From a virus (Duplodnaviria; Caudoviricetes), in the IMG/VR virus record IMGVR_UViG_2974602183_000001, positions 48,107 to 112,106 of that record: a DNA stretch of 64,000 nt, one strand, 5' to 3'. The notes beneath the pieces were generated by a model. It was not told where the DNA came from and did no database searches. It saw only the letters and a list, made by a program, of their open reading frames with translations. The first letter of the stretch is position 1. The number at the start of each line of letters is the position of its first letter. Position numbers and translations under genes: made by a program. This document shows positions 3,768 to 63,669 of this stretch, piece after piece.

Positions 3768-5204
3768 TTAAAGGTGCTCGTCAGCAAATTTAGCTAGGCG
3801 AGAGCGGTGTACTCCACCTAGTGTAATCACCTTGGCGAACGGTTCTCCATGGAATTTTTCGGTAGTACAGGCTAGTGCCGAAGTTCTTGGGGTTACAATT
3901 GGAGAGTCAATCTGATTTAGGGAGCCCATTAGGACAACCTTACAGTACTCACCCGCACGGGAGATTATGGTTTTAACTTGTGACTGAGTTAGGTTTTGAA
4001 TTTCGTCTATAATGAAGACTTTGTGAACGATAGAACGGCCACGCATAAAGTTCAGCGCTTTAGCTTGGATGAACGCATCACCACCTTGCTCGTCAGTTGG
4101 AGTATCAGTTGAGCTAACAATGGAGTTATTAGGGTGTAGCTTCATGTTCTTGGTTACTCGTGCCAGGTGCTCTAAGTTATCAGTAACACCACTTAACCAC
4201 GGTTTGGTCTTCTCAGACTCATTACCAGGTAAGAAACCAATATCGTCGAACTGAGAGTGCATGCTTCGGGAAACGATAACGTCGTAGTGACGGTAGCCAC
4301 GTTTTCCTTTAACCATCTCTACTGCTGCTGCCATAGCTAGCAAAGTCTTACCAGAACCTGCGGCACCGTTAATAATCACAATGTCTAGTTCAGGGTCTAG
4401 TAGGGCGTCTAGGGCAATGGCTTGGTAAAAGTCTTTAGGAACAATACCAGAAGCCTTGCGGTTCAGGAATTGTCCAGCGTTTACGAAAGTAAATTCGAGG
4501 TACATACCATCTTCGTAGCGAGAATCGCCCTCTACAGGCCCCTCTAGCTGAGCGAAGATACCGTCTTCCTCGTTGATTAACCAATCGTTGATACCGAAAG
4601 GTTCATCTCCCAGTAATTCTTCGATTACTGAGGTTTTAATTAGGGTGCGACCGCAAGATTTTGAGATAACGTCATCGTTACCTACAGTGCTTAGCCAGCC
4701 GTCTGGCACTTCAAAGTAACCACGAGGTAATAGGTCAGGGTCTTGAACCACTACATCATTACGATACTCTTGAACTTGTTGTACGCCTGCGCCCCTAGCC
4801 TTTAAGCGCATGCAAACATCGTTAGTTACGAGAACAGGTGAGCCCTTGAAAGCTTCTGAGCCTTCGGCTGGTTCTTGCTGATGAATCGTTGCATTGATAA
4901 TTGCATCGTCCGGACAAGTAACTTTAATGGCTTCAGGGACACCGATGTTAGGTAAAACGAATAGTCGTCCACCTGAGTTCATTTCAACGCCGTCCTCAAT
5001 AGCATCCATATCTCGGATGATTGAGTCTAGGGTACGGATGACAGCTCGGGCGTCGCGGGCTACATCTCTGTCACTTGACTTCTGTCGGTCTAGCTCCTCT
5101 AGTACAGTCATTGGGATTGCTACGTTATGCTCCTCAAACTTAAGAACAGCATGAGGGTCAGAAAGTAGTACGTTGGTATCTAGTATATATAGTTTTTGTG
5201 ACAT
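3768..5204 (-). CDS. phoH: PIN domain-PhoH family ATPase
   Basis: PIN motifs ILDTNVL, VLEELD, VTNDVCMR. Walker A GAAGSGKT, IGFLPG, FMRGRS, IIDEIQN, HRSRLA. Confidence 0.95.
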   Translation of the reverse strand: MSQKLYILDTNVLLSDPHAVLKFEEHNVAIPMTVLEELDRQKSSDRDVARDARAVIRTLDSIIRDMDAIEDGVEMNSGGRLFVLPNIGVPEAIKVTCPDDAIINATIHQQEPAEGSEAFKGSPVLVTNDVCMRLKARGAGVQQVQEYRNDVVVQDPDLLPRGYFEVPDGWLSTVGNDDVISKSCGRTLIKTSVIEELLGDEPFGINDWLINEEDGIFAQLEGPVEGDSRYEDGMYLEFTFVNAGQFLNRKASGIVPKDFYQAIALDALLDPELDIVIINGAAGSGKTLLAMAAAVEMVKGKRGYRHYDVIVSRSMHSQFDDIGFLPGNESEKTKPWLSGVTDNLEHLARVTKNMKLHPNNSIVSSTDTPTDEQGGDAFIQAKALNFMRGRSIVHKVFIIDEIQNLTQSQVKTIISRAGEYCKVVLMGSLNQIDSPIVTPRTSALACTTEKFHGEPFAKVITLGGVHRSRLAKFADEHL

Positions 5205-9500: not shown

Positions 9501-9548
9501 GATGACTACGGAAGCCTAAGCTGGGTAAACGTTAAGGGGTTCTCATGA
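6510..9548 (+). CDS. obp: Replication origin-binding protein (N-terminal AEP primase-like domain plus UL9-like SF2 helicase)
   Basis: FMVFDID and RMHLY primase-like motifs; KASLGTGKT, FIDECD, SGVDF, QALRRCR helicase motifs. GTG start with GGAGG RBS; T5 synteny. Confidence 0.85.
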   Translation: MFTFIAQVENETAPEASSYGWGQNRKKYLTKVWHSPTKTTDIYLAKHFDVVEEVTPASMEELRTLVLKYSQDPNVCMLQHALAEGAPRKNIRRNKETFSVVPKSKFMVFDIDSFPRPEHIDPLDIHQQAKYVLELLSERFPVYFDKKCGYIARGSSSAGIKTDTIRMHLYLENTVPVNTKQLDTIADEVNEVFNEEFKCDLFDDSLYTRAHILYTADPIFEGCMEDPFGVMPRTVFYKSRVTASIPPTTEEKERVKTATLTEEDLESIKRFQGTDIITPPVRRVLDDIEENPDNVYTKKAPRLFFLAMEDGIGFEPLKEAFTIAMQDHPKIVSGERSIDDYLKAAMEFCFQTIKSRAIRTIPDKIDIRIKPYEEIPPEVRKDILTDWPVEKLYPDGAGTDNGYLYIPDMPPVGKLTFWKASLGTGKTTALQRLVLGDEILGIKPKFHGRMLAVTNTVSLVDGNAAKLGAPTDKAYLDPAHRDSFRQNPNGRMSTTIHSLWRFKEMAEEGAIDFVFIDECDAVMDTLLNASAVIMKERAKCIDALSTILRRAKYVVLADGDISEETMFSYFALSDKEVAAVDYKFNKLEGSKAYECKKEETVWLSGVHANLDEGLKVLVVSDLGPKAINERVRGLEMLHPGHVIKGVHSESTKDEDIRDILENTNAALAQYNVDCLVCSPSVVSGVDFHYFDVVAMITNTKIAPPNLRFQALRRCRKPNKEYWIYTDPDTSNFSTGYFRAGNTYPSLEDLMREKFALRKNAEFSGFKSNLRFMLMDQGCEVVVDDLFEAGPGETLETTVKDMCGEGAKAAEREAMIYAILMSREDHFPRRYNNAFEVKQQIAHYYELPSVDAISYDHVDMYIDQDIHTKMANLAEVVRGGLYGLMKVNASTLERFTKFLRVHAIQWYNATGENAFTGYGRKMNMRNAKYQASRIGLVIDIEDKGVEPNWEQLHDWARKYYEYEELAIPKEFLTAEEKAKLAEAASDLNHKLQREEEASDDYGSLSWVNVKGFS

Positions 9549-9847
9549 TATCTAGAAAGATAAGAAGACGCATAGACGAAAATAGGAATCTAGAAAAGTC
9601 TAGGCAGGTAGAAGCTGCTAAGCGGGCGTATAGGGAGATAGTGCTAGCTCTAGGCGAAGAAAAGGTAAAGTTCTTAGTTGGCAGGTACACTATGTATAGT
9701 GAGTCGGATATTAAATATGTCCGACAAATTTTAAGATACTTAGGGGTGTCCGCAAAAGTTTACGTGGTTCCTATAGAAGGAAGGCTAATGGACTGTAGAA
9801 ACGTGATAACAAGTACAGGCTTTTCCATAACGGTACAGTATGGCTAA
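9545..9847 (+). CDS. Hypothetical basic protein
   Basis: ATGA overlap with the upstream gene. Confidence 0.75.
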   Translation: MISRKIRRRIDENRNLEKSRQVEAAKRAYREIVLALGEEKVKFLVGRYTMYSESDIKYVRQILRYLGVSAKVYVVPIEGRLMDCRNVITSTGFSITVQYG

Positions 9848-54184: not shown

Positions 54185-54655
54185 TCATGATTTCCCGTTA
54201 ATCAGAGAACCTAGAAGACCGTTCATCCCCTCGGAGCCTGAAAAGTTATTCTGAATGTTAGTTTGATTTGCAGGGGCTTTCTGTTTGTTTTGGGCCTCTA
54301 TAAGCTTAATCTCCATGTTAAGCTCAGCCATCTTCATTTTATGTACTTTCTCTAGCACAGATAGTAGGTCATCTTCCGATACTATGCCGGATTCTTCTGC
54401 CTCTGCGATTTTTCTATTAATTATTTCATCTAGGAGCCCGAATAGTCTGTCTCGGTTCCTAAATCCCGTTTCCATGAACACAGAGTTTATGTAGTGCCTA
54501 ACCTCGGGGGTCTTCATTTGGGCCGCTACAACCTCCACACCCATGCCTAGTTTTTCTGCGGCTGCCGCTACAGTGCCTGTCTCAAGATAGGCCTCAGCAA
54601 CTAACAACCCCTCCGGAGCCATTATCTCCGGAAGTAGTTTATCTTCATCTGACAT
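54185..54655 (-). CDS. terS: Terminase small subunit
   Basis: APEGL.VAEAYL HTH, GFRNR, NIQNN; T5 synteny. Confidence 0.88.
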   Translation of the reverse strand: MSDEDKLLPEIMAPEGLLVAEAYLETGTVAAAAEKLGMGVEVVAAQMKTPEVRHYINSVFMETGFRNRDRLFGLLDEIINRKIAEAEESGIVSEDDLLSVLEKVHKMKMAELNMEIKLIEAQNKQKAPANQTNIQNNFSGSEGMNGLLGSLINGKS

Positions 54656-54739
54656 CGAGTACTCCTCATCAAAATTTTTGCAAATCTTGTGATTATTATA
54701 TAATATAAATTCGCCGATGCAAAGATGATTTTGTTATGG

Positions 54740-54930
54740 GGTTGCCGAACCTTGCCGAGTACGAAATTTCACATAATAAAATTTTTGAACTGCCGTTTTT
54801 GCCGATACCTGCCGAGTAGTCTGTTTCTATGAGCACTGGGTATATTAGCACCGAGTACGCCTTACTTCAAAAATCACATAAGTATATTAGCACCGATAAC
54901 ATACCAAACCAAAATTCACATAAGTAGTAC
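54740..54930. repeat. Short dispersed repeats near the putative terminal-repeat boundary
   Basis: TATATTAGCACCGA x2, TCACATAA x3, several TGCCGA. Confidence 0.7.
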
Positions 54931-55054
54931 GTGAAGGGGGGTCGCCACGTGCCCTAAATGAGAACAAGTCTCATTACCGCCTACCCTGTACAGGTCTAGT
55001 CTGTTTTTGGAGGCAATCGCTGTACATCATGCGATTGCCTGCCCTGCCGTTATC

Positions 55055-55693
55055 TTATGCACTAGCACCTAACAGTTGACCAGTTAGCGATTCGATGAGA
55101 GATTCACTTTCATTATACGCCAGTTCCTCCATATCGTTAAAGCCTTGCTGATATGCAATTTCAAGCATAAGGTTTAAGTTAGTGGCATCAATAGCAGTAA
55201 AGCCTCTCGCTTTAGCTGCTTTAAGCACGCCCTGATGGTCGTCGTACATGATAAATTCGTGGTTGGTTCCGAAACGCTCAAGCAACATGTCAAAGTAGGC
55301 ACCCTTGTAGGCTGCATCACCTGAGTTATAGATACGCTGCACTTGCTCGGCTGTGAAGTGTTTATGTAGTTGGTCACGGCTAAGGACAAGAGGAACACGC
55401 AAACCGTTTTTGCGTAAATAGTAGTAATCACTATTAGCCATGTGTCGAGCCGTACAGATAACAACAATTTCGCCCTTAGATATTAGGGCTTTCATGTAAT
55501 CGGCTAGTGGCATTAGCTTGTCACGCATAACCTTATTGTGTACACACGCTTCTTTGCGGTACTTGTCAAGGTCTAAATCACCGCCCTCACGTAAACAAGG
55601 CTCTACACGTTCAAAGCTGTCTATAGTGGTTCCGTCTAGGTCAAAAATGTGAACGGTTTGCATTGATAAGGCTAATAGGTTTAGTTTATTCAT
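55055..55693 (-). CDS. dmp: Deoxynucleoside-5'-monophosphatase (HAD family)
   Basis: FDLDGT, CTAR, MYDD motifs; first pre-early gene position. Confidence 0.88.
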   Translation of the reverse strand: MNKLNLLALSMQTVHIFDLDGTTIDSFERVEPCLREGGDLDLDKYRKEACVHNKVMRDKLMPLADYMKALISKGEIVVICTARHMANSDYYYLRKNGLRVPLVLSRDQLHKHFTAEQVQRIYNSGDAAYKGAYFDMLLERFGTNHEFIMYDDHQGVLKAAKARGFTAIDATNLNLMLEIAYQQGFNDMEELAYNESESLIESLTGQLLGASA

Positions 55694-55769
55694 TGGTATT
55701 TCCTCGCATGTTTGCGGATTAGTTAGGTGTGACGGGCGTCACGTTTTTGCGCCCGTCACGGTTTGGGGT

Positions 55770-57437
55770 TTAGTATTGGTACTCGCCCACTTTGTACATA
55801 GGCACTAGCTGATGTGTAGAGTTAGGATAAATAACGGCGTTAGCTCTGTCCCAAGTTGTACCGCCTTTGTTATAGCCCATTTCCATCGAACCCGTTACAC
55901 CTACTACAACCGTGTTATTATCTTCAAACGGTGAATGTGTATGCCCTGTTACAGTCTTAATGCGCATTTTCTTAAAACTAACAGCCGAACCACGGGCACC
56001 GCCTGTACCTACATGACCATGTATTGATACATCATAACCGAATGCGAGGCGTTGCTCGTCAATCTTACCAAACTCAATGTTACTAGAAAGTTCTGGCAAA
56101 CGGTCTGCTAAGGCTGCAAAGGCTAAGTCCATTTTCGCAAGGTCGTTAAATGTTCCGTTATCCATCGCTTCAATGTAAGCAAGCATTAGGGCATGGTATG
56201 TGCGGGCGTTTTTCGGGTCTTTTCGTACATCAAAGCGATTATCACGCAACCAAGAATCTAGGGCTAGGTCGTGGTTTGACTCAACAATAAAGACGGGCGC
56301 AATTTCTGCCAAACGGTTTAGGTAGTTGATTACATCCGTTAAATCTTCAATTACGGCTCTATCTTGCATCTGGTATAAGAACGTCCAATCTTCACGGTTA
56401 TGATGGTTACGGCTCATAAAGTCTAGCGCATCATGTACAACTATCATCTTAGGGTTAACACCCTTAGCCCAGTCAGTTGCACGGCTGAATGAGTCGTCGC
56501 ACATCTTTTCGCAGTGTAAATCACCTAGCACGATTACCGGTTGATTTTCGAATACATCATTATAGGCTTTGATTGAGCCGTCAGGGAAGAACACCGAGCC
56601 GTTATCAATAATTACGCCGTTTTCATCTGATACCAATCTACGGTGAGTAACGTAGCCGTCACGCACTTCGATTAGTAGACCGCCGTAACAATGCTCGGAT
56701 TCTGCCTCCGCACCTGCACGGCTGTCGGTGTAGTGTTTGAGCGTACAAGCTGCCGTTGTATATACCCAACGGTGCGAGCCGTTTTTCTGTCTAGATAGTG
56801 TTTTTGTTTGTCGTCTAGGGCTAGCAACTACCGTGATTGACTCGCCAGTATTTAATCGCTCGGCTGCGTTGATAGGCTGTTTAGCAGTAGGCAAAATTTG
56901 CGCACTGTTTGCCAGTAATACATTACCTTCACCGCCTAACCAAGTGTCAACATAGGTTAATAGGTGCGCTTTTACATCCGCATGGAAGCTAGGCTTTTTG
57001 CGCTCCAAACCTTGCAAAGTTGTTGTATATTTAATAGGCATGATACCAAATTCAGCACCATAGTTTTTTGCCATAGATAGCAAGGTTTTCAGCACTGGAT
57101 GGGGATGGGTATTGTTCTGTCCTGCCGTAATGATATAAATACCGTCGTCTAGGTCGTCAGTTTCACGCCCTGACATCGAACCTGCGAAAGTTGGTTCGAT
57201 GTCCTCTTTCGCCTGTTTGGTATGCGATTTAGTTTGGGATTTTGGAGCCGGACGGTTGTCGTCCAGAAAGTCGATTATCTCCCTAGAATGTACATCCTCG
57301 CCCAGCTCCAAATCGTCACGGATTGCAATTGCTACCTCTCGGCGCTTGGAGTCTAGGCGTTTGCCCCAAAAGTTTTCGCCCTTAGCTAGCTTTAGGATTG
57401 CAGTTGCATTATCAGTGATTTTGTTAGAAATAGTCAT
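55770..57437 (-). CDS. A1: A1 protein (host DNA degradation / second-step transfer), metallophosphoesterase fold
   Basis: 555 aa; GDLH, HDALD, SNHD, IHGH, GHTHSP motifs. Confidence 0.92.
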   Translation of the reverse strand: MTISNKITDNATAILKLAKGENFWGKRLDSKRREVAIAIRDDLELGEDVHSREIIDFLDDNRPAPKSQTKSHTKQAKEDIEPTFAGSMSGRETDDLDDGIYIITAGQNNTHPHPVLKTLLSMAKNYGAEFGIMPIKYTTTLQGLERKKPSFHADVKAHLLTYVDTWLGGEGNVLLANSAQILPTAKQPINAAERLNTGESITVVASPRRQTKTLSRQKNGSHRWVYTTAACTLKHYTDSRAGAEAESEHCYGGLLIEVRDGYVTHRRLVSDENGVIIDNGSVFFPDGSIKAYNDVFENQPVIVLGDLHCEKMCDDSFSRATDWAKGVNPKMIVVHDALDFMSRNHHNREDWTFLYQMQDRAVIEDLTDVINYLNRLAEIAPVFIVESNHDLALDSWLRDNRFDVRKDPKNARTYHALMLAYIEAMDNGTFNDLAKMDLAFAALADRLPELSSNIEFGKIDEQRLAFGYDVSIHGHVGTGGARGSAVSFKKMRIKTVTGHTHSPFEDNNTVVVGVTGSMEMGYNKGGTTWDRANAVIYPNSTHQLVPMYKVGEYQY

Positions 57438-57472
57438 TAGAAATATCCTCGCTTATAGCGGTTAGTGGTGTA

Positions 57473-57513
57473 AATTTACACTGTAAATTGATGGTCAATT
57501 TACAGTGTAAATT
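57473..57513. repeat. Perfect 19-bp inverted repeat with 3-nt loop
   Basis: AATTTACACTGTAAATTGA-tgg-TCAATTTACAGTGTAAATT. Confidence 0.95.
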
Positions 57514-57594
57514 GCCCCCGTTTGGAGGCAATCTGTTAGAATAGGTTAGGTAGCACAAACGCACCTATCAGCACGCCTAGCACTAACCAGTTCA

Positions 57595-58080
57595 TTAGGC
57601 TTTCGCCGTTTCTTGGCGTGGAACTTTCGCTTCTTCGTCAGCTTGAGTGTCGTCAGGGTTAACAATCACTTGCTTACCGCTTAGGGCTTCCGCCAGCTCT
57701 ACGATTAGCTCCAAGTCGGAACCCACAGCTTGCTCTAGTGACTCAAACTTGCGTCCTGTCACTTCCACGCCGTTAGCGGTAGCTAGGTTTTGCAATGCAC
57801 GGATATAGTGAATTTTTTGGGTTTTCACTTTGCCACGTACTGAACGAGCTTTCGCAGCTTTTTGGTAAACTGGTTCGCCTTCTTCGTCTTTAAGCGTGGA
57901 CAGTTTAGAACGTACCGATTGAGCGGATTTAGCCCCGACCGCTTTCGCAATCTTGCCTAGCTCAACATTTGTATTAGCTGTTTCTAAACCAACTTCCGCC
58001 ACAAGTTCACGGTATAGAGTTGTTGCTTGAGATTCAGTTTCTTTGTTCCATTCAAAACCTGCTACTGTTTGCTTAGTCAT
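57595..58080 (-). CDS. A2: A2 DNA-binding protein
   Basis: IAKAVGAKSAQSVRSKL..VYQK HTH, FESLE; upstream of A1. Confidence 0.85.
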   Translation of the reverse strand: MTKQTVAGFEWNKETESQATTLYRELVAEVGLETANTNVELGKIAKAVGAKSAQSVRSKLSTLKDEEGEPVYQKAAKARSVRGKVKTQKIHYIRALQNLATANGVEVTGRKFESLEQAVGSDLELIVELAEALSGKQVIVNPDDTQADEEAKVPRQETAKA

Positions 58081-58211
58081 AATTGTTTCCTCTTTTCAGA
58101 TTTGCCGGATGTTATGAGCACCCGAGTAATGGGACAATTCCCCGAACTAGGCACTTGGTTAAATACCTAGTCAGTGAACTATTCGCTACCTGATAGAAAA
58201 CATATCCAAAT

Positions 58212-58223
58212 TGTTAAAGAGCG
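58212..58223 (-). promoter_or_regulatory. boxA antitermination element
   Basis: CGCTCTTTAACA(ATTT) on the minus strand, compared with rrn boxA TGCTCTTTAACA; just downstream of a promoter. Confidence 0.75.
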
Positions 58224-58244
58224 TATTCCCTTGGGAACGTTGTT

Positions 58245-58273
58245 AGTATCTCAAAAGCCGTTTATTGTGTCAA
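58245..58273 (-). promoter_or_regulatory. Strong pre-early promoter for A2-A1-dmp
   Basis: TTGACA-17-GATACT with an upstream A/T tract. Confidence 0.8.
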
Positions 58274-58399
58274 CTACTTTTTTGAAACTTTTTCGAAAGG
58301 CTTTTCGGCTTTTCTGTCCCGCCTTGTTGCTGCGGTATGTGTATATAATAGCAAATTGAGTCAATGAGTCTAATCGTTTAAATCTTTAAAAATCCCTAG

Positions 58400-59110
58400 A
58401 TTGATAGGTTTTGGCTATCAGCGATTTTTGTCTATAAATATAAGGAAACGGGCGCGCGTCTATCATAGCTAGGAATAAATATCAAATATTTTGGTGAAAA
58501 GTGTGATATAGCTCCAACCCAAAAATCATGCCAACTTGAAAAACACTGTATAAATATACATGCCTCTAAAACGCTCTGTGTGCGTTTCTAAGCGATTTTA
58601 GCCTCTACCCTTGCAATGGTATTCCCAAACAGTTTATGCACTTTTGGGTATTTTTCTGCATATTTATTCACTTTAGTGAATAGAGTGAGAACGAGCTTCT
58701 TTGAAAAGTCAAGGACAAATTTCAAACTCAAAAATCGTCGCAGATGAGAATCCATATTATATATAAATGATAAGGATTCTCATTCGCAGATGAGAACCTT
58801 TTGCATTTGGGTCGAAAAATCGTTGGCACGCCTTTTGCAAGGCAAAATGTATGCCAAGCCTTTTGTTCACAACTTTATGCACATTAGCAAGTTCTAATAA
58901 TACTGGTTATGTACTGTATATCCACAACTTATCAACAGGCTAAGTAAAGTTATCCACCCTAAAAAGGCACTTATAAATTACGGAATGCCGTTTCTAGGCT
59001 GTAGAATCCATTCTAAGCGGTTATCCACAACCTAGACATATTAAAGTAAGGCTTCTTTCTAAAACCTCTCAGAAACGCTTACAGAGCTTATACCCGTTTT
59101 GCTGGTGGTT
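58400..59110. promoter_or_regulatory. Cluster A of host-regulator-like sites (Fur, sigma54, DnaA, LexA, ArgR, CRP, LysR-type)
   Basis: Examples: AATGATAAGGATTCTCATT 58766, TTGGCACGCCTTTTGC 58823, TTATCCACA 59021. Confidence 0.75.
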
Positions 59111-59182
59111 ATAACAAAATGTTATTAGACAAATGGGCTAGAATTGCTACTATATAAGGGAAGGCGGCAAGGAGGACACAAC

Positions 59183-59302
59183 ATGTACCGTATTCACTTT
59201 GATGTTATTTGGTGGTGTCTCAATAAAGAGACGGGCGAGTATACTACAGCTAGTAGTATGCAGAAACTATTTGACAAGGTAGGTATAACATGTTTGAACT
59301 AA
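59183..59302 (+). CDS. 39-aa pre-early protein (not in ORF track)
   Basis: AGGAGG RBS; MYRIHFDVIWWCLNKETGEYTTASSMQKLFDKVGITCLN. Confidence 0.7.
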   Translation: MYRIHFDVIWWCLNKETGEYTTASSMQKLFDKVGITCLN

Positions 59303-59364
59303 TTGCTTGTGTTATGTTTATTGCTGCTATTGCAGTAGGTCTTTACCCCCATTGGAGATGTTAA
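59290..59364 (+). CDS. 24-aa hydrophobic peptide (not in ORF track)
   Basis: MFELIACVMFIAAIAVGLYPHWRC; AGGTAGG upstream; fills the gap between neighbours. Confidence 0.5.
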   Translation: MFELIACVMFIAAIAVGLYPHWRC

Positions 59365-59366
59365 AA

Positions 59367-59660
59367 ATGTTTGTATTAAGTGAAAATGATGTTCGTAAAA
59401 CTGGTTTTATGGAAGCTAGAGAGTTAAAATTTGGTGACACGTTTATACAAAAAGATGAAGAATTAACATTAGAAAATGTTAAAATTGCAGTGTGTCACTA
59501 TGCCGACGATGACGACGACATAGTATATATGCCTTTAGTACCTAAAGAAACACACAACTTACAAGAATTTGGAGATATTCGTTCTGATAACTATATCAGT
59601 AGTTCGGGCAACGTTTGCCTAGTGAAAGTGGTAGTCGAGGGAGTGTCTAAAAATGTTTAA
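59367..59660 (+). CDS. Pre-early hypothetical protein (paralog 1)
   Basis: Start moved to the ATG after GGAG; similar to 59968-60264. Confidence 0.8.
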   Translation: MFVLSENDVRKTGFMEARELKFGDTFIQKDEELTLENVKIAVCHYADDDDDIVYMPLVPKETHNLQEFGDIRSDNYISSSGNVCLVKVVVEGVSKNV

Positions 59661-59958
59661 CCAAAAAGATAAGACTAGTCTAGTCACTCTTGACTATATA
59701 CTGGCGGAATTGTCAATGCTATCCGCAACGGATGACCCATCAGACACGGTATGGTATATCGACTCGGATGAGTCCTTGTTGATTACGGTACATCCTAAAT
59801 ACGGGCTAGTGTTCTACAACGATGAGATGCAAACTATAGGTATCTACGACAGAGAGCAAGAAAGCGAGATGCTAAACCTACTAGACGACTGGTCTATTTA
59901 TAGTGACTCTAAGGTGTGGCGTGAAATTGGTATAGACCAAATCGACTACGTAGTGTAG
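59653..59958 (+). CDS. Pre-early acidic hypothetical protein
   Basis: GAGGGAG RBS, overlaps the upstream ORF. Confidence 0.8.
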   Translation: MFNQKDKTSLVTLDYILAELSMLSATDDPSDTVWYIDSDESLLITVHPKYGLVFYNDEMQTIGIYDREQESEMLNLLDDWSIYSDSKVWREIGIDQIDYVV

Positions 59959-59967
59959 GGGTAGGAT

Positions 59968-60264
59968 ATGATTGTTCACAAAAAAGACAAAAAAGACAAA
60001 AAAGAGTTCTTGGCAAGCGATTTGCTACAAGGTCAAGCCTTTGTTATCCGAGGTGAGGATATAGAGCTAAAAAATGTTAAGATAGCTCTATACACCTATT
60101 CAGAGACGGATGAGGATGTAGTTTACTTGCCCATCAATAGTGCATCGGCACACAAAACAGACTGTTTAAGGTTCCAAGATAATTACTATATAAGCGAGGA
60201 TGCCAAGGTAGTGCCTGTGGTTCTAGAAGTAGAAGACGTGTATCCTGACAAAAATGTGAGCTAG
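59968..60264 (+). CDS. Pre-early hypothetical protein (paralog 2)
   Basis: LKNVKIA / DVVYLP / YIS shared with 59367-59660. Confidence 0.8.
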   Translation: MIVHKKDKKDKKEFLASDLLQGQAFVIRGEDIELKNVKIALYTYSETDEDVVYLPINSASAHKTDCLRFQDNYYISEDAKVVPVVLEVEDVYPDKNVS

Positions 60265-60298
60265 GTCACTTGACTAGGGCAACGGATTGTCCTATTAT
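60255..60298 (+). promoter_or_regulatory. sigma70 promoter with abutting CRP-like site
   Basis: TGTGA-gctagg-TCACT (60255-60270), then TTGACT-17-TATTAT. Confidence 0.65.
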
Positions 60299-60359
60299 AT
60301 ACCCATACCAGCGAGGTATGACCGACCGGACGGATTTTCCGAGATTTTGGAGATTTACC

Positions 60360-60563
60360 ATGAAAGCATCTAACCTAGTAGCCCTAGCCAATATCATTGA
60401 GACTAACGCCAGTGATTATGCTGTAATCTCAATTACTGACAATGCAATAGATGGTCTAACTGTTGTTTTGGAGCGTGTGGATTCAGGTCACGTCCTGACT
60501 GTACAAGGCGACACACTAAGCGAGCTAGAACAAGCTATCATTAACGGCGTTCAACCATTCTAA
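60360..60563 (+). CDS. Pre-early hypothetical protein (67 aa)
   Basis: Start moved to MKASNL after GGAG. Confidence 0.75.
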   Translation: MKASNLVALANIIETNASDYAVISITDNAIDGLTVVLERVDSGHVLTVQGDTLSELEQAIINGVQPF

Positions 60564-60619
60564 CCAACTAGGGCGACTAAGGTCGCCCACAACTAACCGC
60601 TAAGAGCGAGGAAAAGACC

Positions 60620-60955
60620 ATGTATACATATAACGCTATAGTAGACGACCCAACTCATCGTTGGTATGGTATGTTAGTTAAAGTAGAAGTAACAGACCTG
60701 GACTCAATGGTTCACAAATGTATCCGTGAAGGTCGCCAGTCGTACGTAGATTGCAAGCACTTGAAAAAGCGTAGTGCAGTCAATAACCACGTAGTAGGGG
60801 AACCACGTTGCGGTATCCTATTCAATAAGGGCGCTATTTGGTTAGGCGGTCATTACTCCCCATTCAATCGCCGTTGGTGTATCAACCTAGTACCGTGCAT
60901 CACAATTTGGTTCACCCTGCGAGACGGTAAAGCACCGCAAAGGGCTAAGTTTTGA
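60620..60955 (+). CDS. Pre-early hypothetical protein
   Basis: GAGGA RBS; Trp-rich C-terminus WLGGHYSPFNRRWCINLVPC. Confidence 0.8.
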   Translation: MYTYNAIVDDPTHRWYGMLVKVEVTDLDSMVHKCIREGRQSYVDCKHLKKRSAVNNHVVGEPRCGILFNKGAIWLGGHYSPFNRRWCINLVPCITIWFTLRDGKAPQRAKF

Positions 60956-61084
60956 GAGCCGTATTTGTTCTAGGGGCATTGTTTGGGGTAGTCAGAATTT
61001 ATTTTGGCACGGAACTTGCCCACACGTTTCAAGGCGTACTAGTGATTTTATGTAGCTTGGTCGCCTTGGGGGTATATTACATAG

Positions 61085-61273
61085 ATGGAGAGTAGACTAA
61101 TGTTAGCTTACCAAATAATCTACTACCTAAAAGTTGATGTACTCGGCGGAGGTATCCGCCGATTTACTAAGGCGTTCCCTAGCCGAGAGCTACGGGACGA
61201 AGTATATTATCGCATAGTGACCAGTAACCCTAGAATTGTTGGTCTGGTTGAACTTAAAACAGTGAGGCAATAA
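61085..61273 (+). CDS. Pre-early hypothetical protein
   Basis: ORF; the true start may be the ATG at 61100 after GGAG. Confidence 0.65.
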   Translation: MESRLMLAYQIIYYLKVDVLGGGIRRFTKAFPSRELRDEVYYRIVTSNPRIVGLVELKTVRQ

Positions 61274-61275
61274 TC

Positions 61276-61503
61276 ATGCCAAAATTAATCCATATCGTTG
61301 CACTAGATTTTGAGCTTGTGGAAATTTCAGACTACACTTGGGAAATCTGCGAGGAAGAAATTCACAACGTACTAGATAATATTTTTGTTGAGCACATCCC
61401 CAAGGGTGACTTTTCCGAAGGCTTCCTAGAATTGTTGCGTGAAGACCTAAAGATGACCAAGGATGAGTTTGACAAAGTCACCCACCTTGTAAGTGTTAGC
61501 TAG
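61276..61503 (+). CDS. Pre-early acidic hypothetical protein
   Basis: GAGG RBS; followed by a terminator. Confidence 0.7.
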   Translation: MPKLIHIVALDFELVEISDYTWEICEEEIHNVLDNIFVEHIPKGDFSEGFLELLREDLKMTKDEFDKVTHLVSVS

Positions 61504-61516
61504 CAATAATCATACC

Positions 61517-61541
61517 AATCCCGCCTTGTGTGGGATTTTTT
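61517..61541 (+). terminator. Terminator ending the rightward pre-early operon
   Basis: AATCCCGC-cttgt-GTGGGATTTTTT. Confidence 0.75.
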
Positions 61542-61555
61542 GTATCCAGAGCCTA

Positions 61556-62016
61556 ATTGAGAATGCTTCTCATTTGACCGCGCCCGTCCGGCAATGAGAA
61601 TGATTATCATTTGTGTTACGTGCGTGTGCAAGGCTGCTAGTGGATGGTAGGCTTGCTTTAGTACCTAGGGCGGTGAAACTCGGCTTACAGAGCGTTACAG
61701 TGCCTCTCAAGGGCACCCAGAATATTGCACTACGTGCAAGGTACTGTTTATTTATACAGTGGTATAAGCTGTGGATAACTGTGTGGATAAGTCGTCAGAG
61801 AGCCTTACAGCGATAAAGCAAAAATCGTGCCATGTGGATAACAAAATTCATGCCATATTTTATATTGTCCATCTGTGCAGTAAACTAGATGATAATGCTT
61901 CTCATTCAACCTAGGGAATGCGAATGAGAATGCTTCGCATTCGTACTCGCAGGGGCAAATGAGAATTATTCGCATTTGCAAATGATTATCATTTCGCTCT
62001 TTGAATAATTCTCATT
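61556..62016. promoter_or_regulatory. Cluster B of host-regulator-like sites (7 Fur, 3 DnaA, LexA, sigma54)
   Basis: Examples: AATGAGAATGATTATCATT 61593, CTGTTTATTTATACAG 61744, TGTGGATAA 61770/61782/61833. Confidence 0.8.
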
Positions 62017-62048
62017 CAACTTCTCTGGTACATTGATTCTGCGCCCCA

Positions 62049-62527
62049 GGGAGTGCGAAATCTATGAGTGCAAAAGTTACGTGTGAGTGCGGATTCTATG
62101 TGAGTGCGGATTCTATGTGAGTGCGGATTCTATTGGAAGCTTCGTGGGTTACGACGGCTACGCCGTCGAGCTACATGGGCCCTGGGGCGTTTTTGGAGGT
62201 AATCGGCAAAAACTTGAAATAATCGCTTGACAATCGGGTTTCGGTGAGATTCTGCGCCCTTGGGGCCTCAAAAGCCGCGCCACCTGTGGAGTACAGGAGC
62301 TGGCAGCTCCCCAGGATTAGGTACATATAGAATTCAACCTGGGGCTCAGGGGGTTCGACGGCAAAGCCGTCGGGTTCCTGTAATTTAAGTGCCTGTAATT
62401 TAAGTGCCTGTAATTACAATAAGGCTAGGGATAGGTTGGCTAGGGAAAGTTATGTGAGCTAGGGTAGATTTTTGAATGGGTTTGTGAGTGCGGATTCTAG
62501 GGAAAGTTATGTGAGTGCGGATTCTAT
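62049..62527. repeat. Repeat and hairpin field (injection-stop-signal-like or repeat boundary)
   Basis: 17-bp GTGAGTGCGGATTCTAT x3 tandem (62083-62133) plus copies at 62484 and 62511; 15-bp CCTGTAATTTAAGTG x2.6 (62377-62415); two CGACGGC-N3-GCCGTCG hairpins. Confidence 0.9.
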
Positions 62528-62967
62528 GTAGAGGTTATTAAGTTTTAGAAGCTAGGAATGGATTATAGGGAAAGATACTAGGAAGGGATTACGGGGCGGG
62601 CAAGGCTTTTGTTTTGTAAAAGTCTCTTGTGGGAATTAAGGTAGTCTGTTTTTGAGGAGTCTCTTTTTAGTAAAAGATGACTTTTTAAGGTTCGAGTGGA
62701 ATTTAGGGTATTAGAGTCCCCACCAAAAGATTAAGAAGTTATTAAAAGATATTTAGTAGTATTTTATTGCTCGCTTTTTTGCGAATACTACTAGGATTTT
62801 TGTTGTTTCCATCTCTCCTTTGCTGCCGCCTCCCGAATGGAAACAAGAATCCTAGGCATTCGCGAAGCGAGCTAGGGTTTTTAGAAAGGAGGTAAATTAA
62901 AACCTCCTAGTCTCTAAAAGTTCCATATGATTATAACATATTTTGAAGTTTTTCCAACCGACTTTTT

Positions 62968-63669
62968 CTACTCTGGGGTGAGTTTGATGGTCATTCCGAT
63001 TTTTGGTTTCTCATTCATAAGCTCCTTAGTCTCGCGAAGCTTGGCCGGCTTGCCCTGCCTAAAATCTTCAATCTGTTCGGCTCTAGAAGCTTTAGTTAGT
63101 ATAGGGTGCTTAAGTCCTGGATTGCCATTGCACAAATTGAATTGGCAAGTAGGCTCAAACTCGCGAGTCTTAAGTTCTTCTACCAATTGCATGATATGCA
63201 CTGGTTTTTCATATATTATCTCGTACAACACAGCGAGGACAGGAGTATTCCAAGTATTAGAAAGCTCAGAGTTCTTCTTCCATTTGCCCCAGTTAGGTTT
63301 GTAGCCTAACTCTGGCCATTGAGGTAGTTTTCTCACAAACTCCTTAATGTGTGTAGTATCTCCACTAGAGAAGGAGAGTTCAGTGCCTACGTCAGACTTG
63401 CCACGTCCTAGACCTACAGACTCTGGATTCAGGAAGTAGTTATCACGTTCTTCGTGTAATGCCCAATACCTGCAAATGTACTCTATACCTCCCGGTGCAT
63501 TACCAAAGGAGAATTGCCAAGTACTTTGTGACTTGGCTAGTGACTGTTTTCCTCTCTTAGAGAACCCTAGTAACATTAAGTGTAGCTCCGTTAAAGGTAC
63601 CTCTCCAGTCTTGACTTGTTTTAGTGTTTCTTTTACTTTATGGTAAAGCGCGTGTCTATATTGTTCCAT
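62968..63669 (-). CDS. Hypothetical early protein (233 aa)
   Basis: GAGG RBS, long ORF. Confidence 0.8.
   Translation of the reverse strand: MEQYRHALYHKVKETLKQVKTGEVPLTELHLMLLGFSKRGKQSLAKSQSTWQFSFGNAPGGIEYICRYWALHEERDNYFLNPESVGLGRGKSDVGTELSFSSGDTTHIKEFVRKLPQWPELGYKPNWGKWKKNSELSNTWNTPVLAVLYEIIYEKPVHIMQLVEELKTREFEPTCQFNLCNGNPGLKHPILTKASRAEQIEDFRQGKPAKLRETKELMNEKPKIGMTIKLTPE

What the first reader, a model, noticed from the sequence alone, without database searches (positions are those of the whole stretch)
58400..62016. First-injected DNA carries dense arrays of binding sites for many host regulators: candidate DNA decoy / landing-pad system
Seen: two gene-free blocks of the pre-early region (about 58400-59110 and 61500-62020) are tiled almost end to end with close matches to known gammaproteobacterial sites: Fur, sigma54 -24/-12, DnaA, LexA, ArgR, CRP and a LysR-type palindrome. 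Both blocks use largely the same vocabulary (Fur, sigma54, DnaA, LexA and one unknown motif) in a different order. Many sites point at no gene or face each other. Known: T5-like phages inject this segment first and then pause, and DnaA-like boxes and palindromes were noted at the T5 injection-stop signal. Inference: a protein-free system in which phage DNA recruits or titrates host regulators. It could derepress iron uptake, SOS and arginine genes while sequestering DnaA and sigma54-RNAP. Alternatively the bound proteins could act as a ratchet, stop or protective coat for the incoming DNA. I do not know of this multi-regulator array being described.
Basis: partly seen in the sequence, partly recalled or inferred. 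Interest (0 to 1): 0.92.

Follow-up and report, generated by a model that had tools for sequence, protein, structure and literature searches.

The report
Host-protein sites on first-injected phage DNA
Two gene-free stretches in the DNA that this T5-like Vibrio phage probably injects first carry real, conserved binding-site sequences for the host proteins Fur, LexA, DnaA and sigma-54 polymerase, the same kit found in phage T5's unexplained injection-pause region, so they more likely dock host proteins on the phage DNA than drain them from the host.

Summary
The window is a T5-like Vibrio phage (Pogseptimavirus group). The two blocks match T5 "Repeat Regions 1/2" (between the divergent pre-early operons) and "Repeat Region 3" (injection-stop region).

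Confirmed, far above chance and found almost nowhere else in the 112-kb genome:
- Fur boxes: 8 of 9 genome sites lie in the blocks.
- Perfect DnaA boxes: 4 of 4.
- Perfect sigma-54 -24/-12 elements: 2 of 2.
- One perfect and one near LexA box.

CRP, ArgR and LysR sites are not supported.

The same kit sits only in the terminal-repeat or pre-early DNA of 10 relatives. In T5 itself, "palindrome D" is a LexA box and "direct repeat C" is a Fur-box array. DnaA boxes there are published (Davison 2020). I found LexA, Fur and sigma-54 in none of the T5 papers I could search. Earlier agents of this scan reached the same reading on other T5-like genomes.

A decoy role is unlikely. There is a single DNA copy at that stage, T5 destroys host DNA within minutes, and the sites overlap no promoter. 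The best reading is a cis-acting docking module for pre-existing host proteins, serving the injection pause, DNA-end handling or local transcription. No binding has been shown.

The parts
54957..54981 (.). Left-terminal element AATGAGAACAAGTCTCATT+ACCGCC. It is a Fur-like palindrome with 2 mismatches and the only Fur-type site outside the two blocks. It lies about 20 bp inside the probable left genome end.
   Evidence: site. (the same element lies 17-46 bp from the recorded left ends of EscoHU1 and phi 3, and at 220 in KIT04). (the SJ1 terminal repeat maps to about 54936).
58245..58273 (-). Sigma-70-type promoter candidate (TTGACA-17-GATACT with TG) for the leftward A2-A1-dmp operon. It lies outside the site cluster.
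   Evidence: Gene identities.
58443..58460 (.). GC-rich word GGAAACGGGCGCGCGTC. It is conserved in T5, EscoHU1 and phi 3. An inverted 9-mer copy lies at 61579.
58544..58563 (.). LexA-box-like palindrome. Its core CTGTATAAATATACAT has one mismatch in the right half-site, and the same mismatch is kept in all the Vibrio relatives checked.
   Evidence: (matches phi 3, phiR2-01 and the ends of N4-like phages).
58566..58601 (.). Left arm of an inverted repeat (CTAAAACGCTCTGTGTGCGTTTCTAAGCG). By sequence and position it corresponds to T5 'inverted repeat B'. Binder unknown.
   Evidence: I2: 29-nt arms, 83% complementary. (the same word in EscoHU1, phi 3 and T5)..
58745..58784 (.). Fur-box palindrome pair in block 1. 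The best site is AATGATAAGGATTCTCATT at 58766-58784 (1 mismatch to the 19-mer).
   Evidence: This stretch is absent or different in Ceto, VPG01 and Chester.
58824..58839 (+). Perfect sigma-54 -24/-12 element TGGCACGCCTTTTGCA. It points toward the DnaA boxes and the rightward operon.
   Evidence: phi 3 has a perfect one at the equivalent place.
58863..59029 (+). Cluster of DnaA boxes, all on the + strand. Consensus boxes at 58875 and 59021. One-mismatch boxes at 58863, 58918, 58929 and 58950.
   Evidence: No variable column in 45 box positions among 4 close relatives.
59059..59087 (.). Right arm of the inverted repeat. It contains GCTCTGTAAGCG on the minus strand.
59126..59153 (+). Sigma-70-type promoter candidate (TAGACA-16-TACTAT with TG) for the rightward small-gene operon (59184-61503).
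61556..61611 (.). Two Fur-type palindromes: 61556-61574 (2 mismatches) and 61593-61611 (exact 19-mer AATGAGAATGATTATCATT). They flank an 18-nt GC-rich spacer. The recorded terminal-repeat boundary of the 93% relative SJ1 maps to 61583, inside that spacer.
   Evidence: (I16).
61682..61693 (-). Copy of the GCTCTGTAAGC word (1 mismatch).
61742..61761 (.). Canonical LexA box TACTGTTTATTTATACAGTG. Its 16-bp core is identical to the boxes upstream of E. coli K-12 hokE and istR-2/tisB.
   Evidence: It is the most conserved element across 9 phages.
61770..61841 (-). Three perfect DnaA boxes on the minus strand. 61770 and 61782 form a pair 3 bp apart. The third is at 61833.
   Evidence: The pairing matches that described for T5.
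61817..61855 (-). Perfect sigma-54 element (minus-strand read TGGCACGATTTTTGCT, 61817-61832) and a weaker copy with 2 mismatches (61840-61855). The 16-mer is identical in KIT04 and Ceto.
   Evidence: Alignment.
61888..62016 (.). Array of five Fur-type boxes. The first three (61888, 61923, 61958) are 35 bp apart. Two weaker ones follow at 61975 and 61998.
   Evidence: (family D2). The same 35-bp spacing occurs in X1, ValDsh2, SJ1, EscoHU1, T5 and DU_PP_V.
62049..62600 (+). Field of short direct repeats (TGTGAGTGCGGATTCTA x5, a 15-bp tandem x3) and twin hairpins. By position it corresponds to T5 'direct repeat D'. It lies outside the finding but in the same non-coding region.
   Evidence: T5 annotation. 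Repeat field of phi 3.

Best explanation
The two blocks are this Vibrio phage's versions of the conserved untranslated modules of the T5 first-step-transfer DNA. Block 1 corresponds to Repeat Regions 1/2, between the divergent pre-early operons. Block 2 corresponds to the start of Repeat Region 3, the injection-stop region. The two are partly inverted copies of each other.

They are built from high-affinity sites for host DNA-binding proteins that already exist in every cell: LexA, DnaA and Fur, plus sigma-54 RNA polymerase in the Vibrio-phage lineages. The most likely mode of action is in cis. Within the first seconds of entry, before any phage protein exists, these abundant host proteins load onto the incoming DNA and build a nucleoprotein complex.

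That complex would hold or organise the first-injected DNA during the pause before the rest of the genome follows. It could anchor or stop the DNA, loop the two inverted modules together, or shield DNA ends. It would also set the local transcription context. The module therefore acts as a landing pad, not a sink.

Shown: the sites exist, are strongly enriched, are confined to this DNA, and are conserved from E. coli phages to Vibrio phages. Inferred: that the named proteins bind, that this phage injects in two steps, and what the complex does.
For: 1. Enrichment and exclusivity in this genome: Fur 8 of 9 sites, DnaA 4 of 4, sigma-54 2 of 2, and 0 of 1000 shuffles reach any of these counts.

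2. The patterns mark true host sites.
- In E. coli K-12, 5 of 6 CTGT-W8-ACAG matches lie just upstream of hokE, istR-2/tisB, umuD, sbmC and dinD. That these are SOS genes is recalled knowledge.
- Of 4 perfect Fur-pattern matches in K-12, 2 lie just upstream of gpmA and sufA.
- In 80 bacterial loci holding the exact 19-mer pattern, the box lies inside a long ORF in only 4. The 76 adjacent genes include TonB-dependent receptors (8), Fur (5), Peripla_BP_2 (5), FecCD (3), FeoB (3), Nramp (2) and FTR1 (2). In 92 control genes from the same loci, the 25 families listed include none of these except Peripla_BP_2 (2).

3. Deep conservation. I scanned 10 relatives over their whole records.
- All 20 distinct Fur sites (up to 1 mismatch; present in 8 of 10 phages) lie in the terminal repeat or pre-early DNA. 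So do all 10 distinct strict LexA boxes (8 of 10 phages). None lies in the roughly 100-kb unique parts. Reversed-pattern controls gave 0.
- In T5 itself, the LexA box is the annotated 'palindrome D' and sits in inverted repeats D/D'. The Fur boxes are 'direct repeat C / palindromes E, G, I' at 9475-9630. These lie beside the calculated shear point 9618 and the 7.9% nick.
- In a 9-phage alignment, 14 of 21 invariant columns fall in the LexA box.
- Perfect sigma-54 elements occur at matching places in phi 3, KIT04 and Ceto but not in T5 or DU_PP_V.

4. The sites do not overlap promoters. The candidate sigma-70 promoters of both operons lie outside the cluster. In T5 the sites lie between annotated promoters P3 and P4.

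5. The phage encodes no Fur, LexA DNA-binding or sigma-54-activator homologue.

6. Biology from Davison 2020. The T5 pause needs no phage protein synthesis, does not occur with FhuA proteoliposomes, and 'the host protein responsible is unsolved'.
Against: - No binding, footprint, ChIP or expression data exist for any of these sites. I found no RNA data set for this phage.
- Two-step injection has been verified only in T5 and BF23. For this phage it is inferred from A1, A2, dmp and the repeat architecture.
- Proteins that bind DNA already inside the cell do not obviously stop the DNA behind it.
- Among four close relatives, the sites are only modestly better conserved than the flanks: 24 of 344 variable columns against 101 of 888, Fisher p = 0.02. 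Fur boxes alone show no difference (17 of 186, p = 0.44).
- Fur-box number and position turn over. D423 and Chester have none at up to 1 mismatch. The block-1 Fur/sigma-54 stretch is missing or different in Ceto, VPG01 and Chester.
- The block-1 LexA-like box carries a mismatch in a critical half-site, and every Vibrio relative keeps it. That hints at another binder.
- Fur-like palindromes also sit about 10-20 bp inside both recorded ends of SJ1's terminal repeat. This points to packaging or end binding.
- From recall, not checked here: T5 grows on fur and lexA mutant hosts. No single one of these factors can therefore be essential.
Confidence: 0.45

Rival explanations
1. Transcription control. 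The sigma-54 elements are working enhancer-dependent promoters. Block 1 would fire sense into the rightward pre-early operon. Block 2 would fire antisense into its 3' end. Fur, LexA and DnaA would act as roadblocks, insulators or condition sensors (iron, DNA damage) between the convergent and divergent transcription units.
For: The -24/-12 elements are perfect and kept in other Vibrio-phage genera. TGGCACGATTTTTGCT is identical here, in KIT04 and in Ceto. Both copies point into the same operon from opposite sides. A lytic phage that depends on sigma-54 has a precedent, Pseudomonas phage YuA (passage read in 10.1101/2023.10.13.562163). Block 2 lies between convergent units, where roadblocks would make sense.
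Against: The phage encodes no enhancer-binding ATPase, and I identified no known activator site. E. coli T5-like phages keep Fur, LexA and DnaA without any sigma-54 element. The repressor sites overlap no sigma-70 promoter candidate. No Rfam RNA lies downstream. No RNA data were available.
Confidence: 0.2
2. Packaging or DNA-end function for the Fur-like palindromes. They would be recognition sites for the terminase or an end-binding protein, with or without host Fur as an accessory (as IHF serves lambda cos; recalled). They would mark where the terminal repeat is cut or capped.
For: A conserved element ATGAGAAnnAGTCTCATTACCGCC lies 17-46 bp from the recorded left ends of EscoHU1 and phi 3. 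It also occurs here at 54957. SJ1's recorded 6,675-bp repeat ends about 10-20 bp outside a Fur-like palindrome at both boundaries. One boundary maps to 61583, between the two palindromes of block 2. The left-end element keeps a non-Fur base (AGT for ATT) in all phages, which suggests a constraint other than Fur. Regularly spaced arrays at 35 bp resemble terminase small-subunit site arrays (recalled). In K-12, 2 of 4 perfect Fur-pattern sites lie next to the nohD and nohA packaging genes of cryptic prophages.
Against: The SJ1 ends come from an unverified record. The recorded repeat ends in T5 (10139), phi 3 (7769) and EscoHU1 (9914) are not at Fur boxes. This reading does not explain the LexA, DnaA and sigma-54 sites. 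The array sites match the host Fur consensus closely, including one exact 19-mer.
Confidence: 0.13
3. Decoy or titration. The phage DNA soaks up Fur, LexA, DnaA and sigma-54 to derepress or starve host functions.
For: Several high-affinity sites lie close together. At up to 1 mismatch there are 5 Fur sites in 1.2 kb, whereas no two of the 26 K-12 sites lie within 500 bp of each other. Multicopy Fur boxes are known to titrate Fur in the FURTA assay (recalled). After replication, hundreds of genome copies carrying the duplicated repeat could reach the size of scarce pools such as sigma-54 (recalled numbers).
Against: One copy is present at the first-injection stage. In T5 the host DNA is degraded and host transcription shut off within minutes, which leaves nothing to derepress. 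The sites are arranged in a conserved order, orientation and spacing, which a sink would not need. The ArgR and CRP parts of the idea are not real.
Confidence: 0.07
4. The palindromes are operators of a phage protein, for example the A2-type DNA-binding protein, and only resemble host Fur and LexA boxes.
For: An A2-like DNA-binding protein is encoded next to block 1 (phrog_1725, E = 2.8e-21) and has no known target. The block-1 LexA-like box keeps a half-site mismatch in all Vibrio relatives. The same 45-nt element sits at the ends of unrelated N4-like Vibrio phages.
Against: Three or four different host consensus sequences, each near perfect, co-occur. The same words are validated host sites in bacteria. 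The T5 pause happens without phage protein synthesis.
Confidence: 0.1
5. A DnaA-dependent replication origin or replication-control locus of the phage.
For: DnaA boxes are clustered, oriented and paired 3 bp apart, as around oriC.
Against: T5 origins were mapped near the genome centre, and the replication genes arrive only with the second step (Davison 2020). I did not look for an AT-rich unwinding element. The LexA and Fur arrays are not origin features.
Confidence: 0.05

Closest known systems
Phage T5 untranslated Repeat Regions 1/2 and 3 of the left terminal repeat. These hold IRC-spacer-IRD and IRD'-spacer-IRC' with eight DnaA boxes, and the candidate injection stop signal. Sources: Davison 2020, bioRxiv 10.1101/866236 (abstract, sections 3.3, 4.1 and 4.5 and term searches read) and the GenBank AY587007 annotation.
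   Same: Same positions: between the divergent pre-early operons and after the rightward operon. Same inverted relationship between the two modules. Same order in the right-hand module: LexA-type palindrome, DnaA-box pairs, Fur-type repeats, then short direct repeats. Direct sequence matches.
   Different: The published description names only DnaA boxes, repeats and palindromes. Here, and in T5 on re-reading, the palindromes resolve into LexA and Fur boxes. The Vibrio lineages add sigma-54 elements. By the SJ1 record, the repeat boundary here may fall inside block 2 rather than beyond it.
Bacterial Fur and LexA operators, for example E. coli gpmA, sufA, umuD, sbmC, dinD, hokE and tisB/istR-2.
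   Same: Same consensus words. The block-2 LexA core is identical to the K-12 hokE and istR-2/tisB boxes. One Fur site is an exact 19-mer of the pattern that marks iron-uptake genes.
   Different: The phage sites overlap no promoter. They lie between or after operons. They form arrays with 35-bp spacing, denser than anything in K-12 at the same threshold.
Sigma-54-dependent transcription in the lytic Pseudomonas phage YuA (Ceyssens et al. 2008, as cited in 10.1101/2023.10.13.562163; one passage read).
   Same: A virulent phage that carries host-type sigma-54 promoter elements.
   Different: In YuA promoter activity was measured. Here nothing is measured, no activator is known, and one element faces antisense to the nearest operon.
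Protein-titrating DNA loci: the E. coli datA locus for DnaA, and multicopy Fur boxes in the FURTA assay (recalled, not checked in a call).
   Same: Clusters of high-affinity sites with no gene to regulate.
   Different: Those work through capacity or copy number against a living chromosome. Here there is one copy at the relevant time and the host DNA is being destroyed.
Host-factor sites at phage DNA-handling loci, such as the IHF site in lambda cosB (recalled).
   Same: A phage borrows an abundant host DNA-binding protein as an architectural part of a cis-acting DNA-handling site.
   Different: Different proteins, several of them together, and a different process (entry, or possibly end formation).

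Membership tests
T5-type first-step-transfer repeat modules (Repeat Regions 1/2 and 3) | Untranslated blocks between the divergent dmp-A1-A2 operon and the small-gene operon, and after the small-gene operon. | tested here: met
   ORF map. A1, A2 and dmp identified. T5 layout.
T5-type first-step-transfer repeat modules (Repeat Regions 1/2 and 3) | The two modules share elements in inverted orientation. | tested here: met
   24 shared 9-mers against a mean of 4.1 in controls. DnaA boxes are on + in block 1 and on - in block 2, as in T5.
T5-type first-step-transfer repeat modules (Repeat Regions 1/2 and 3) | DnaA boxes in pairs separated by 3 bp. | tested here: met
   61770-61778 and 61782-61790 are 3 bp apart. 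The block-1 pair 58918/58929 is 2 bp apart. Feature as defined.
T5-type first-step-transfer repeat modules (Repeat Regions 1/2 and 3) | Constant 52-bp spacer between the two inverted-repeat arms. | not tested
   I did not delimit the arms in this phage.
T5-type first-step-transfer repeat modules (Repeat Regions 1/2 and 3) | Two-step DNA injection that pauses at this region. | not testable with these tools
   Verified only for T5 and BF23.
LexA (SOS) box | CTGT-N8-ACAG with an AT-rich spacer. | tested here: met
   61744 is perfect. 58546 has one half-site mismatch. In K-12 the pattern hits SOS-gene upstream regions in 5 of 6 cases.
LexA (SOS) box | Binding by LexA, and overlap with a regulated promoter. 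| tested here: not met
   No promoter candidate overlaps either box. Binding itself cannot be tested with these tools.
Fur box | 19-bp 7-1-7 inverted repeat, AATGAKAATNATTMTCATT. | tested here: met
   One exact site, two with 1 mismatch and four with 2 mismatches to the 19-mer. The pattern is validated on bacterial loci and on K-12.
Fur box | Binding by metal-loaded Fur. | not testable with these tools
   No assay available. The phage encodes no Fur of its own.
Sigma-54 promoter | -24 GG and -12 GC elements with fixed spacing (TGGCAC-N5-TTGCW). | tested here: met
   Perfect at 58824 (+) and 61817 (-). These are 2 of 2 in the genome.
Sigma-54 promoter | An enhancer-binding ATPase with upstream sites, and a transcript start. 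| tested here: inconclusive
   The phage has no Sigma54_activat homologue. Host activators and transcript starts cannot be tested here.
CRP and ArgR operators | Matches to TGTGA-N6-TCACA and to the ARG box above chance. | tested here: not met
   CRP: 0 in the blocks. ArgR: 1 match, reached by 91 of 1000 shuffles.
Titrating decoy locus (datA- or FURTA-like) | Enough site capacity or copies to change the free pool of the protein while host targets can still respond. | not testable with these tools
   By inference this is unlikely. There is a single copy at first-step transfer, and the host DNA is degraded within minutes in T5.

The most novel reading that the evidence does not exclude
Fur, LexA and DnaA, plus sigma-54 polymerase in Vibrio, are together the long-sought host factor of T5-type two-step injection. 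These abundant proteins would capture the incoming DNA within milliseconds at arrays placed at its leading end and at the pause point. They would bridge the two inverted modules into a closed, end-protected loop. That loop would both halt further transfer and allow pre-early transcription, until A1 and A2 dismantle it.
Probability: 0.18. Interest if true: 0.9.

Novelty: new variant of a known kind. Interest (0 to 1): 0.66.

Why it matters
It is still unknown why T5 DNA transfer stops after about 8% and which host component is responsible. Reading the enigmatic palindromes and repeats of that region as LexA and Fur boxes next to the known DnaA boxes gives the problem short lists of named proteins and base pairs. 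These can be tested with standard mutants, footprints and ChIP. That the kit persists from E. coli phages to Vibrio phages, which add sigma-54 elements, argues that it is functional and tuned to the host. It would also be an unusual case of a strictly lytic phage using host repressors as structural parts on its own DNA rather than as regulators.

Tried and rejected
- CRP, ArgR and IHF sites were scanned and found at chance level or absent. LysR was not testable.
- Rfam search of 54500-63100 at E up to 1: only two chance-level hits (mir-1538 and Trp leader, far below gathering scores). No known RNA family explains the blocks.
- Phage-encoded Fur, LexA DNA-binding or sigma-54-activator homologues: none. 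Pfam and PHROGs on ten pre-early proteins gave only A1, A2 and dmp-type hits plus families of unknown function.
- Sequencing runs: no RNA holder listed and only assembled contigs kept. Neither expression nor physical DNA ends could be examined, so I did not use read laying.
- A LexA-pattern and DnaA-pattern hit elsewhere in the genome (contig position about 26524) is one overlapping GC-containing word, not a module. I dropped it.
- Conservation of sites against flanks among four close relatives gave only a modest signal. There I labelled two weak Fur-like words (58744-58762 and 58789-58803, 3 mismatches) as sites. The flanks also hold other conserved words, so the test is conservative and imperfect.
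- K-12 calibration of the Fur pattern: I annotated only the 4 perfect hits out of 26 hits at up to 1 mismatch. Two were iron-related (gpmA, sufA) and two lay in cryptic prophages. My impression that several one-mismatch hits are entC/fepB, fiu, mntH, sodA, fecI and fhuF is recall of the map, not a call.
- Literature. Davison's 2015 review was not held. The 1987 and 2005 T5 sequence papers were not searchable. Supplements are closed, and Davison 2020 refers its repeat catalogue to supplemental files, which might name further motifs. 'Not in print' therefore rests only. For the 11 papers holding 'bacteriophage T5' and 'LexA' and the 1 paper holding 'bacteriophage T5' and 'Fur box', I saw listings only, plus one term search (PMC8541194, where LexA appears only in a reference).

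Full report
WHAT THE DNA IS. The window belongs to a T5-like phage of Vibrio. Region 58100-62100 is about 91% identical to Vibrio phages ValDsh2, VspSw_1, SJ1 and X1 (Demerecviridae, Pogseptimavirus). Leftward genes 55055-58080 encode the T5 pre-early set: dmp-type phosphatase, A1 'DNA transfer protein' (phrog_1745, E = 2.8e-163) and an A2-type DNA-binding protein (phrog_1725). Block 1 (58400-59110) lies in the 1-kb gap between that operon and a rightward operon of small genes of no known function (59184-61503). Block 2 (61500-62020) begins after that operon's terminator (61517-61537). It runs into a field of short direct repeats before the leftward early genes. This is the layout of the T5 left terminal repeat.

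- Fur 7-1-7 boxes, up to 2 mismatches: 8 of 9 genome sites are in the blocks (shuffle mean 0.04, 0 of 1000 reach 8). The ninth lies at 54959.
- Perfect DnaA boxes: 4 of 4.
- Perfect sigma-54 -24/-12 elements: 2 of 2.
- LexA: one perfect CTGT-N8-ACAG of 3 in the genome (13 of 1000 shuffles), plus a one-mismatch copy.
- CRP: none. ArgR: one loose match at chance level (91 of 1000). IHF: none. LysR is too degenerate to test.

Without using any known motif, the blocks share 24 canonical 9-mers. In 481 random segment pairs the mean was 4.1 and the maximum 17. The shared words are the LexA, Fur and DnaA words, a GCTCTGTAAGC word, a CGCGCCCGT word and AAAAATCGT.

The four-factor core of the observation therefore stands. 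The ArgR, CRP and LysR parts do not. 'Tiled end to end' is an overstatement: supported sites cover 134 of 711 nt of block 1 and 210 of 521 nt of block 2.

DO THE PATTERNS MEAN WHAT THEIR NAMES SAY? I calibrated them on annotated bacterial DNA.
- LexA in E. coli K-12: the strict pattern has 6 matches, against 1 for the reversed control. Five lie in the short gaps just upstream of hokE, istR-2/tisB, umuD, sbmC and dinD. The sixth lies in a cryptic prophage. That those five are SOS genes is textbook knowledge that I recall.
- The 16-bp core at 61744 is identical to the K-12 hokE and istR-2/tisB boxes.
- Fur in K-12: the pattern at up to 1 mismatch has 26 matches, against 2 for the control. No two of them lie within 500 bp of each other. 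Of the 4 perfect ones, two lie just upstream of gpmA and sufA and two lie in cryptic prophages.
The box lies inside a long ORF in only 4, and 58 loci have a gene starting within 350 bp.
- Those 76 neighbouring genes include TonB-dependent receptors (8), Fur itself (5), Peripla_BP_2 (5), iron-type solute-binding proteins (4), FecCD (3), FeoB (3), Nramp (2), FTR1 (2) and FeoA (2).
- In 92 control genes more than 1.2 kb away in the same loci, the 25 families listed contain none of these except Peripla_BP_2 (2).
- The site at 61593-61611 is an exact match to that 19-mer.
- The phage encodes no Fur, LexA DNA-binding or sigma-54-activator homologue.

RELATIVES. The blocks are not a peculiarity of this phage.
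- Block 1 aligns at 70-79% with other Vibrio T5-like genera (KIT04, Ceto, VPG01, Chester), apart from the stretch holding its Fur pair and sigma-54 element.
- Block 2 has diverged beyond alignment outside close relatives, except at a Fur box and at the LexA-DnaA segment. The latter still matches E. coli and Salmonella T5-like phages inside their terminal repeats.
- In whole-record scans of ten relatives (T5, EscoHU1, DU_PP_V, phi 3, KIT04, Ceto, VPG01, X1, D423, Chester), 8 of 10 phages have Fur sites at up to 1 mismatch. All 20 distinct sites lie in the terminal repeat or pre-early DNA. The same holds for all 10 distinct strict LexA boxes (8 of 10 phages). None lies in the roughly 100-kb unique parts, and reversed-pattern controls gave 0.
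- Perfect DnaA boxes are likewise confined in T5, phi 3, KIT04 and Ceto, but not in DU_PP_V.
- Perfect sigma-54 elements occur in the Vibrio phages phi 3, KIT04 and Ceto at matching places. They do not occur in T5 or DU_PP_V.
- In an alignment of the right-hand module of nine phages, 14 of 21 invariant columns lie in the LexA box.
- Among four close relatives, sites vary less than flanks (24 of 344 against 101 of 888 columns, p = 0.02). DnaA boxes drive this. Fur boxes alone do not differ.
- The exact LexA 16-mer is common in other viral contigs. Only large, T5-sized contigs combine it with DnaA boxes: 4 of 7 contigs of 90 kb or more against 0 of 73 smaller ones, among the 80 loci returned.

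T5 ITSELF. Re-reading the annotated T5 sequence gives the following.
- 'Palindrome D', in inverted repeat D' (9332), and its partner in inverted repeat D (6137) read TACTGTATAAATATACAGTA. This is a near-consensus LexA box.
- 'Direct repeat C' and 'palindromes E, G, I' (9475-9630) read AAATGAGAATCATTATCATT and variants. These are Fur boxes.
- They lie next to the calculated shear point of first-step-transfer DNA (9618; Davison 2020, Fig. 3 legend) and the 7.9% nick (9661).
- The order is the same in T5 and here: LexA box, DnaA pairs, Fur array, short direct repeats.
- A 35-bp spacing of Fur boxes recurs here, in X1, ValDsh2, SJ1, EscoHU1, T5 and DU_PP_V.

WHAT IS ALREADY KNOWN. Davison (bioRxiv 2020; abstract, sections 3.3, 4.1 and 4.5 and term searches read) describes three untranslated repeat regions in the T5 terminal repeat. 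He also describes the inverted pair IRC-spacer-IRD and IRD'-spacer-IRC', and eight paired DnaA boxes conserved in 25 enterobacterial T5-like phages. He proposes that membrane-bound DnaA stops injection.
- That text contains no 'LexA', 'sigma' or 'Vibrio', and its 'fur' hits are the word 'further'.
- I checked all 4 papers listed in the library as holding 'injection stop signal'. They mention repeats, palindromes and at most DnaA boxes.
- Searches for 'bacteriophage T5' with 'LexA' (11 papers) or 'Fur box' (1 paper) gave nothing on this topic, judging by listing.
- Older subscription papers, Davison's 2015 review and all supplements could not be read.
- Earlier agents of this same scan reached the same LexA, Fur and sigma-54 reading on other T5-like genomes. 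That is not independent evidence.

HOW IT MOST LIKELY WORKS.

The sites are not classical operators. The candidate sigma-70 promoters of both operons (58273-58245 on the minus strand, 59126-59153 on the plus strand) lie outside the cluster. In T5 the sites lie between annotated promoters P3 and P4, or after the last pre-early gene.

They are unlikely to be decoys. One DNA copy is present at that stage. In T5 the host DNA is degraded and host expression is shut off within minutes. The conserved order, orientation and spacing is more than a sink would need.

What remains is a cis-acting role for proteins that are already present, abundant and nearly universal in gamma-proteobacteria. The T5 pause occurs without phage protein synthesis and is lost with purified receptor in liposomes, so a host component is expected.

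I therefore read the blocks as docking modules that assemble a host-protein complex on the entering DNA. The complex would serve the pause, the looping together of the two inverted modules, end protection or the local transcription context. This is inference. How proteins bound to DNA already inside the cell would stop the DNA behind it is not explained.

A RIVAL THAT EMERGED. The relative SJ1 records a 6,675-bp terminal repeat. It maps to about 54936-61583 of the window.
- Both boundaries lie 10-20 bp outside a Fur-like palindrome.
- One boundary falls in the GC-rich spacer between the two palindromes at the start of block 2.
- The left-end element, ATGAGAAnnAGTCTCATTACCGCC, is conserved 17-46 bp from the recorded left ends of EscoHU1 and phi 3. 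It keeps a non-Fur base in all phages.

Some 'Fur-like' palindromes may therefore serve end formation or end binding. The SJ1 record is unverified, and the recorded ends of T5, phi 3 and EscoHU1 repeats are not at Fur boxes.

The sigma-54 elements may also be real promoters. Phage YuA is a precedent. One would then read sense and one antisense into the rightward operon.

VERDICT. The core observation is real and significant. The decoy interpretation is weak, and the landing-pad alternative is the better one. The structure is a known kind (the T5 injection-stop repeat modules with DnaA boxes). It is seen here in a Vibrio-phage variant that adds sigma-54 elements. In the literature I could search, its LexA and Fur content has not been recognised.

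Noticed in passing
window 54957-54981; L005 (EscoHU1) record 17-40; L004 (phi 3) 30-53; L008 (KIT04) 220-245: A conserved left-terminal element ATGAGAAnnAGTCTCATTACCGCC lies 17-46 bp from the recorded left genome ends of E. coli and Vibrio T5-like phages. T5 has a degenerate version.
   Followed up: partly
window 61556-61611; L024 (SJ1) 1-30 and 6640-6675: SJ1's recorded 6,675-bp terminal repeat ends in the GC-rich spacer between two Fur-type palindromes. The inner palindrome is an inverted copy of the left-terminal element. This hints at a link to end formation.
   Followed up: partly
window 58546-58590; L025 (VCO139) 1501-1543: A 45-nt element (one-mismatch LexA-like palindrome plus GCCTCTAAAAC.CTCTGT) recurs at 89-91% identity within the last 75 bp or so of the records of N4-like V. 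cholerae phages VCO139 and phi 1. In JSF3 it lies about 700 bp from the record end.
   Followed up: partly
E. coli K-12 NC_000913 580594 and 1636593 (L020, L022): Two of the four perfect Fur-pattern palindromes of K-12 lie about 230-240 bp upstream of nohD and nohA. These are the terminase-small-subunit-like genes of cryptic prophages DLP12 and Qin.
   Followed up: no
window 61888-61976; L005 3349-3433; L009 9579-9628; L006 9072-9121: Fur-type boxes are spaced exactly 35 bp apart in four separate T5-like lineages. That is one third of ten helical turns, so three sites would complete a rotation.
   Followed up: no
window 62049-62600: A strand-biased field of repeats: a 17-mer x5, a 15-bp tandem x3, and twin CGACGGC...GCCGTCG hairpins. 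By position it corresponds to T5 direct repeat D and to the GGTGCAAAACCGATATA repeats of phi 3. It may be the phage-specific part of the stop signal.
   Followed up: no
window 58213-58226 (minus strand); L009 about 4980-4995; L005 7771-7785; L004 4040-4052: An rrn boxA-like word (GCTCTTTAAC/A) in the leader of the A2-A1-dmp operon is kept in T5, EscoHU1 and phi 3.
   Followed up: no
window 58443-58460 and 61575-61592: The GC-rich word GGAAACGGGCGCGCG is conserved in T5 (about 5131), EscoHU1 and phi 3. An inverted 9-mer copy lies at the putative repeat boundary.
   Followed up: no
window 57595-58080 (minus strand): The A2-type DNA-binding protein gives a borderline Pfam DUF669 match (20.9 bits against a cut-off of 21).
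   Followed up: no
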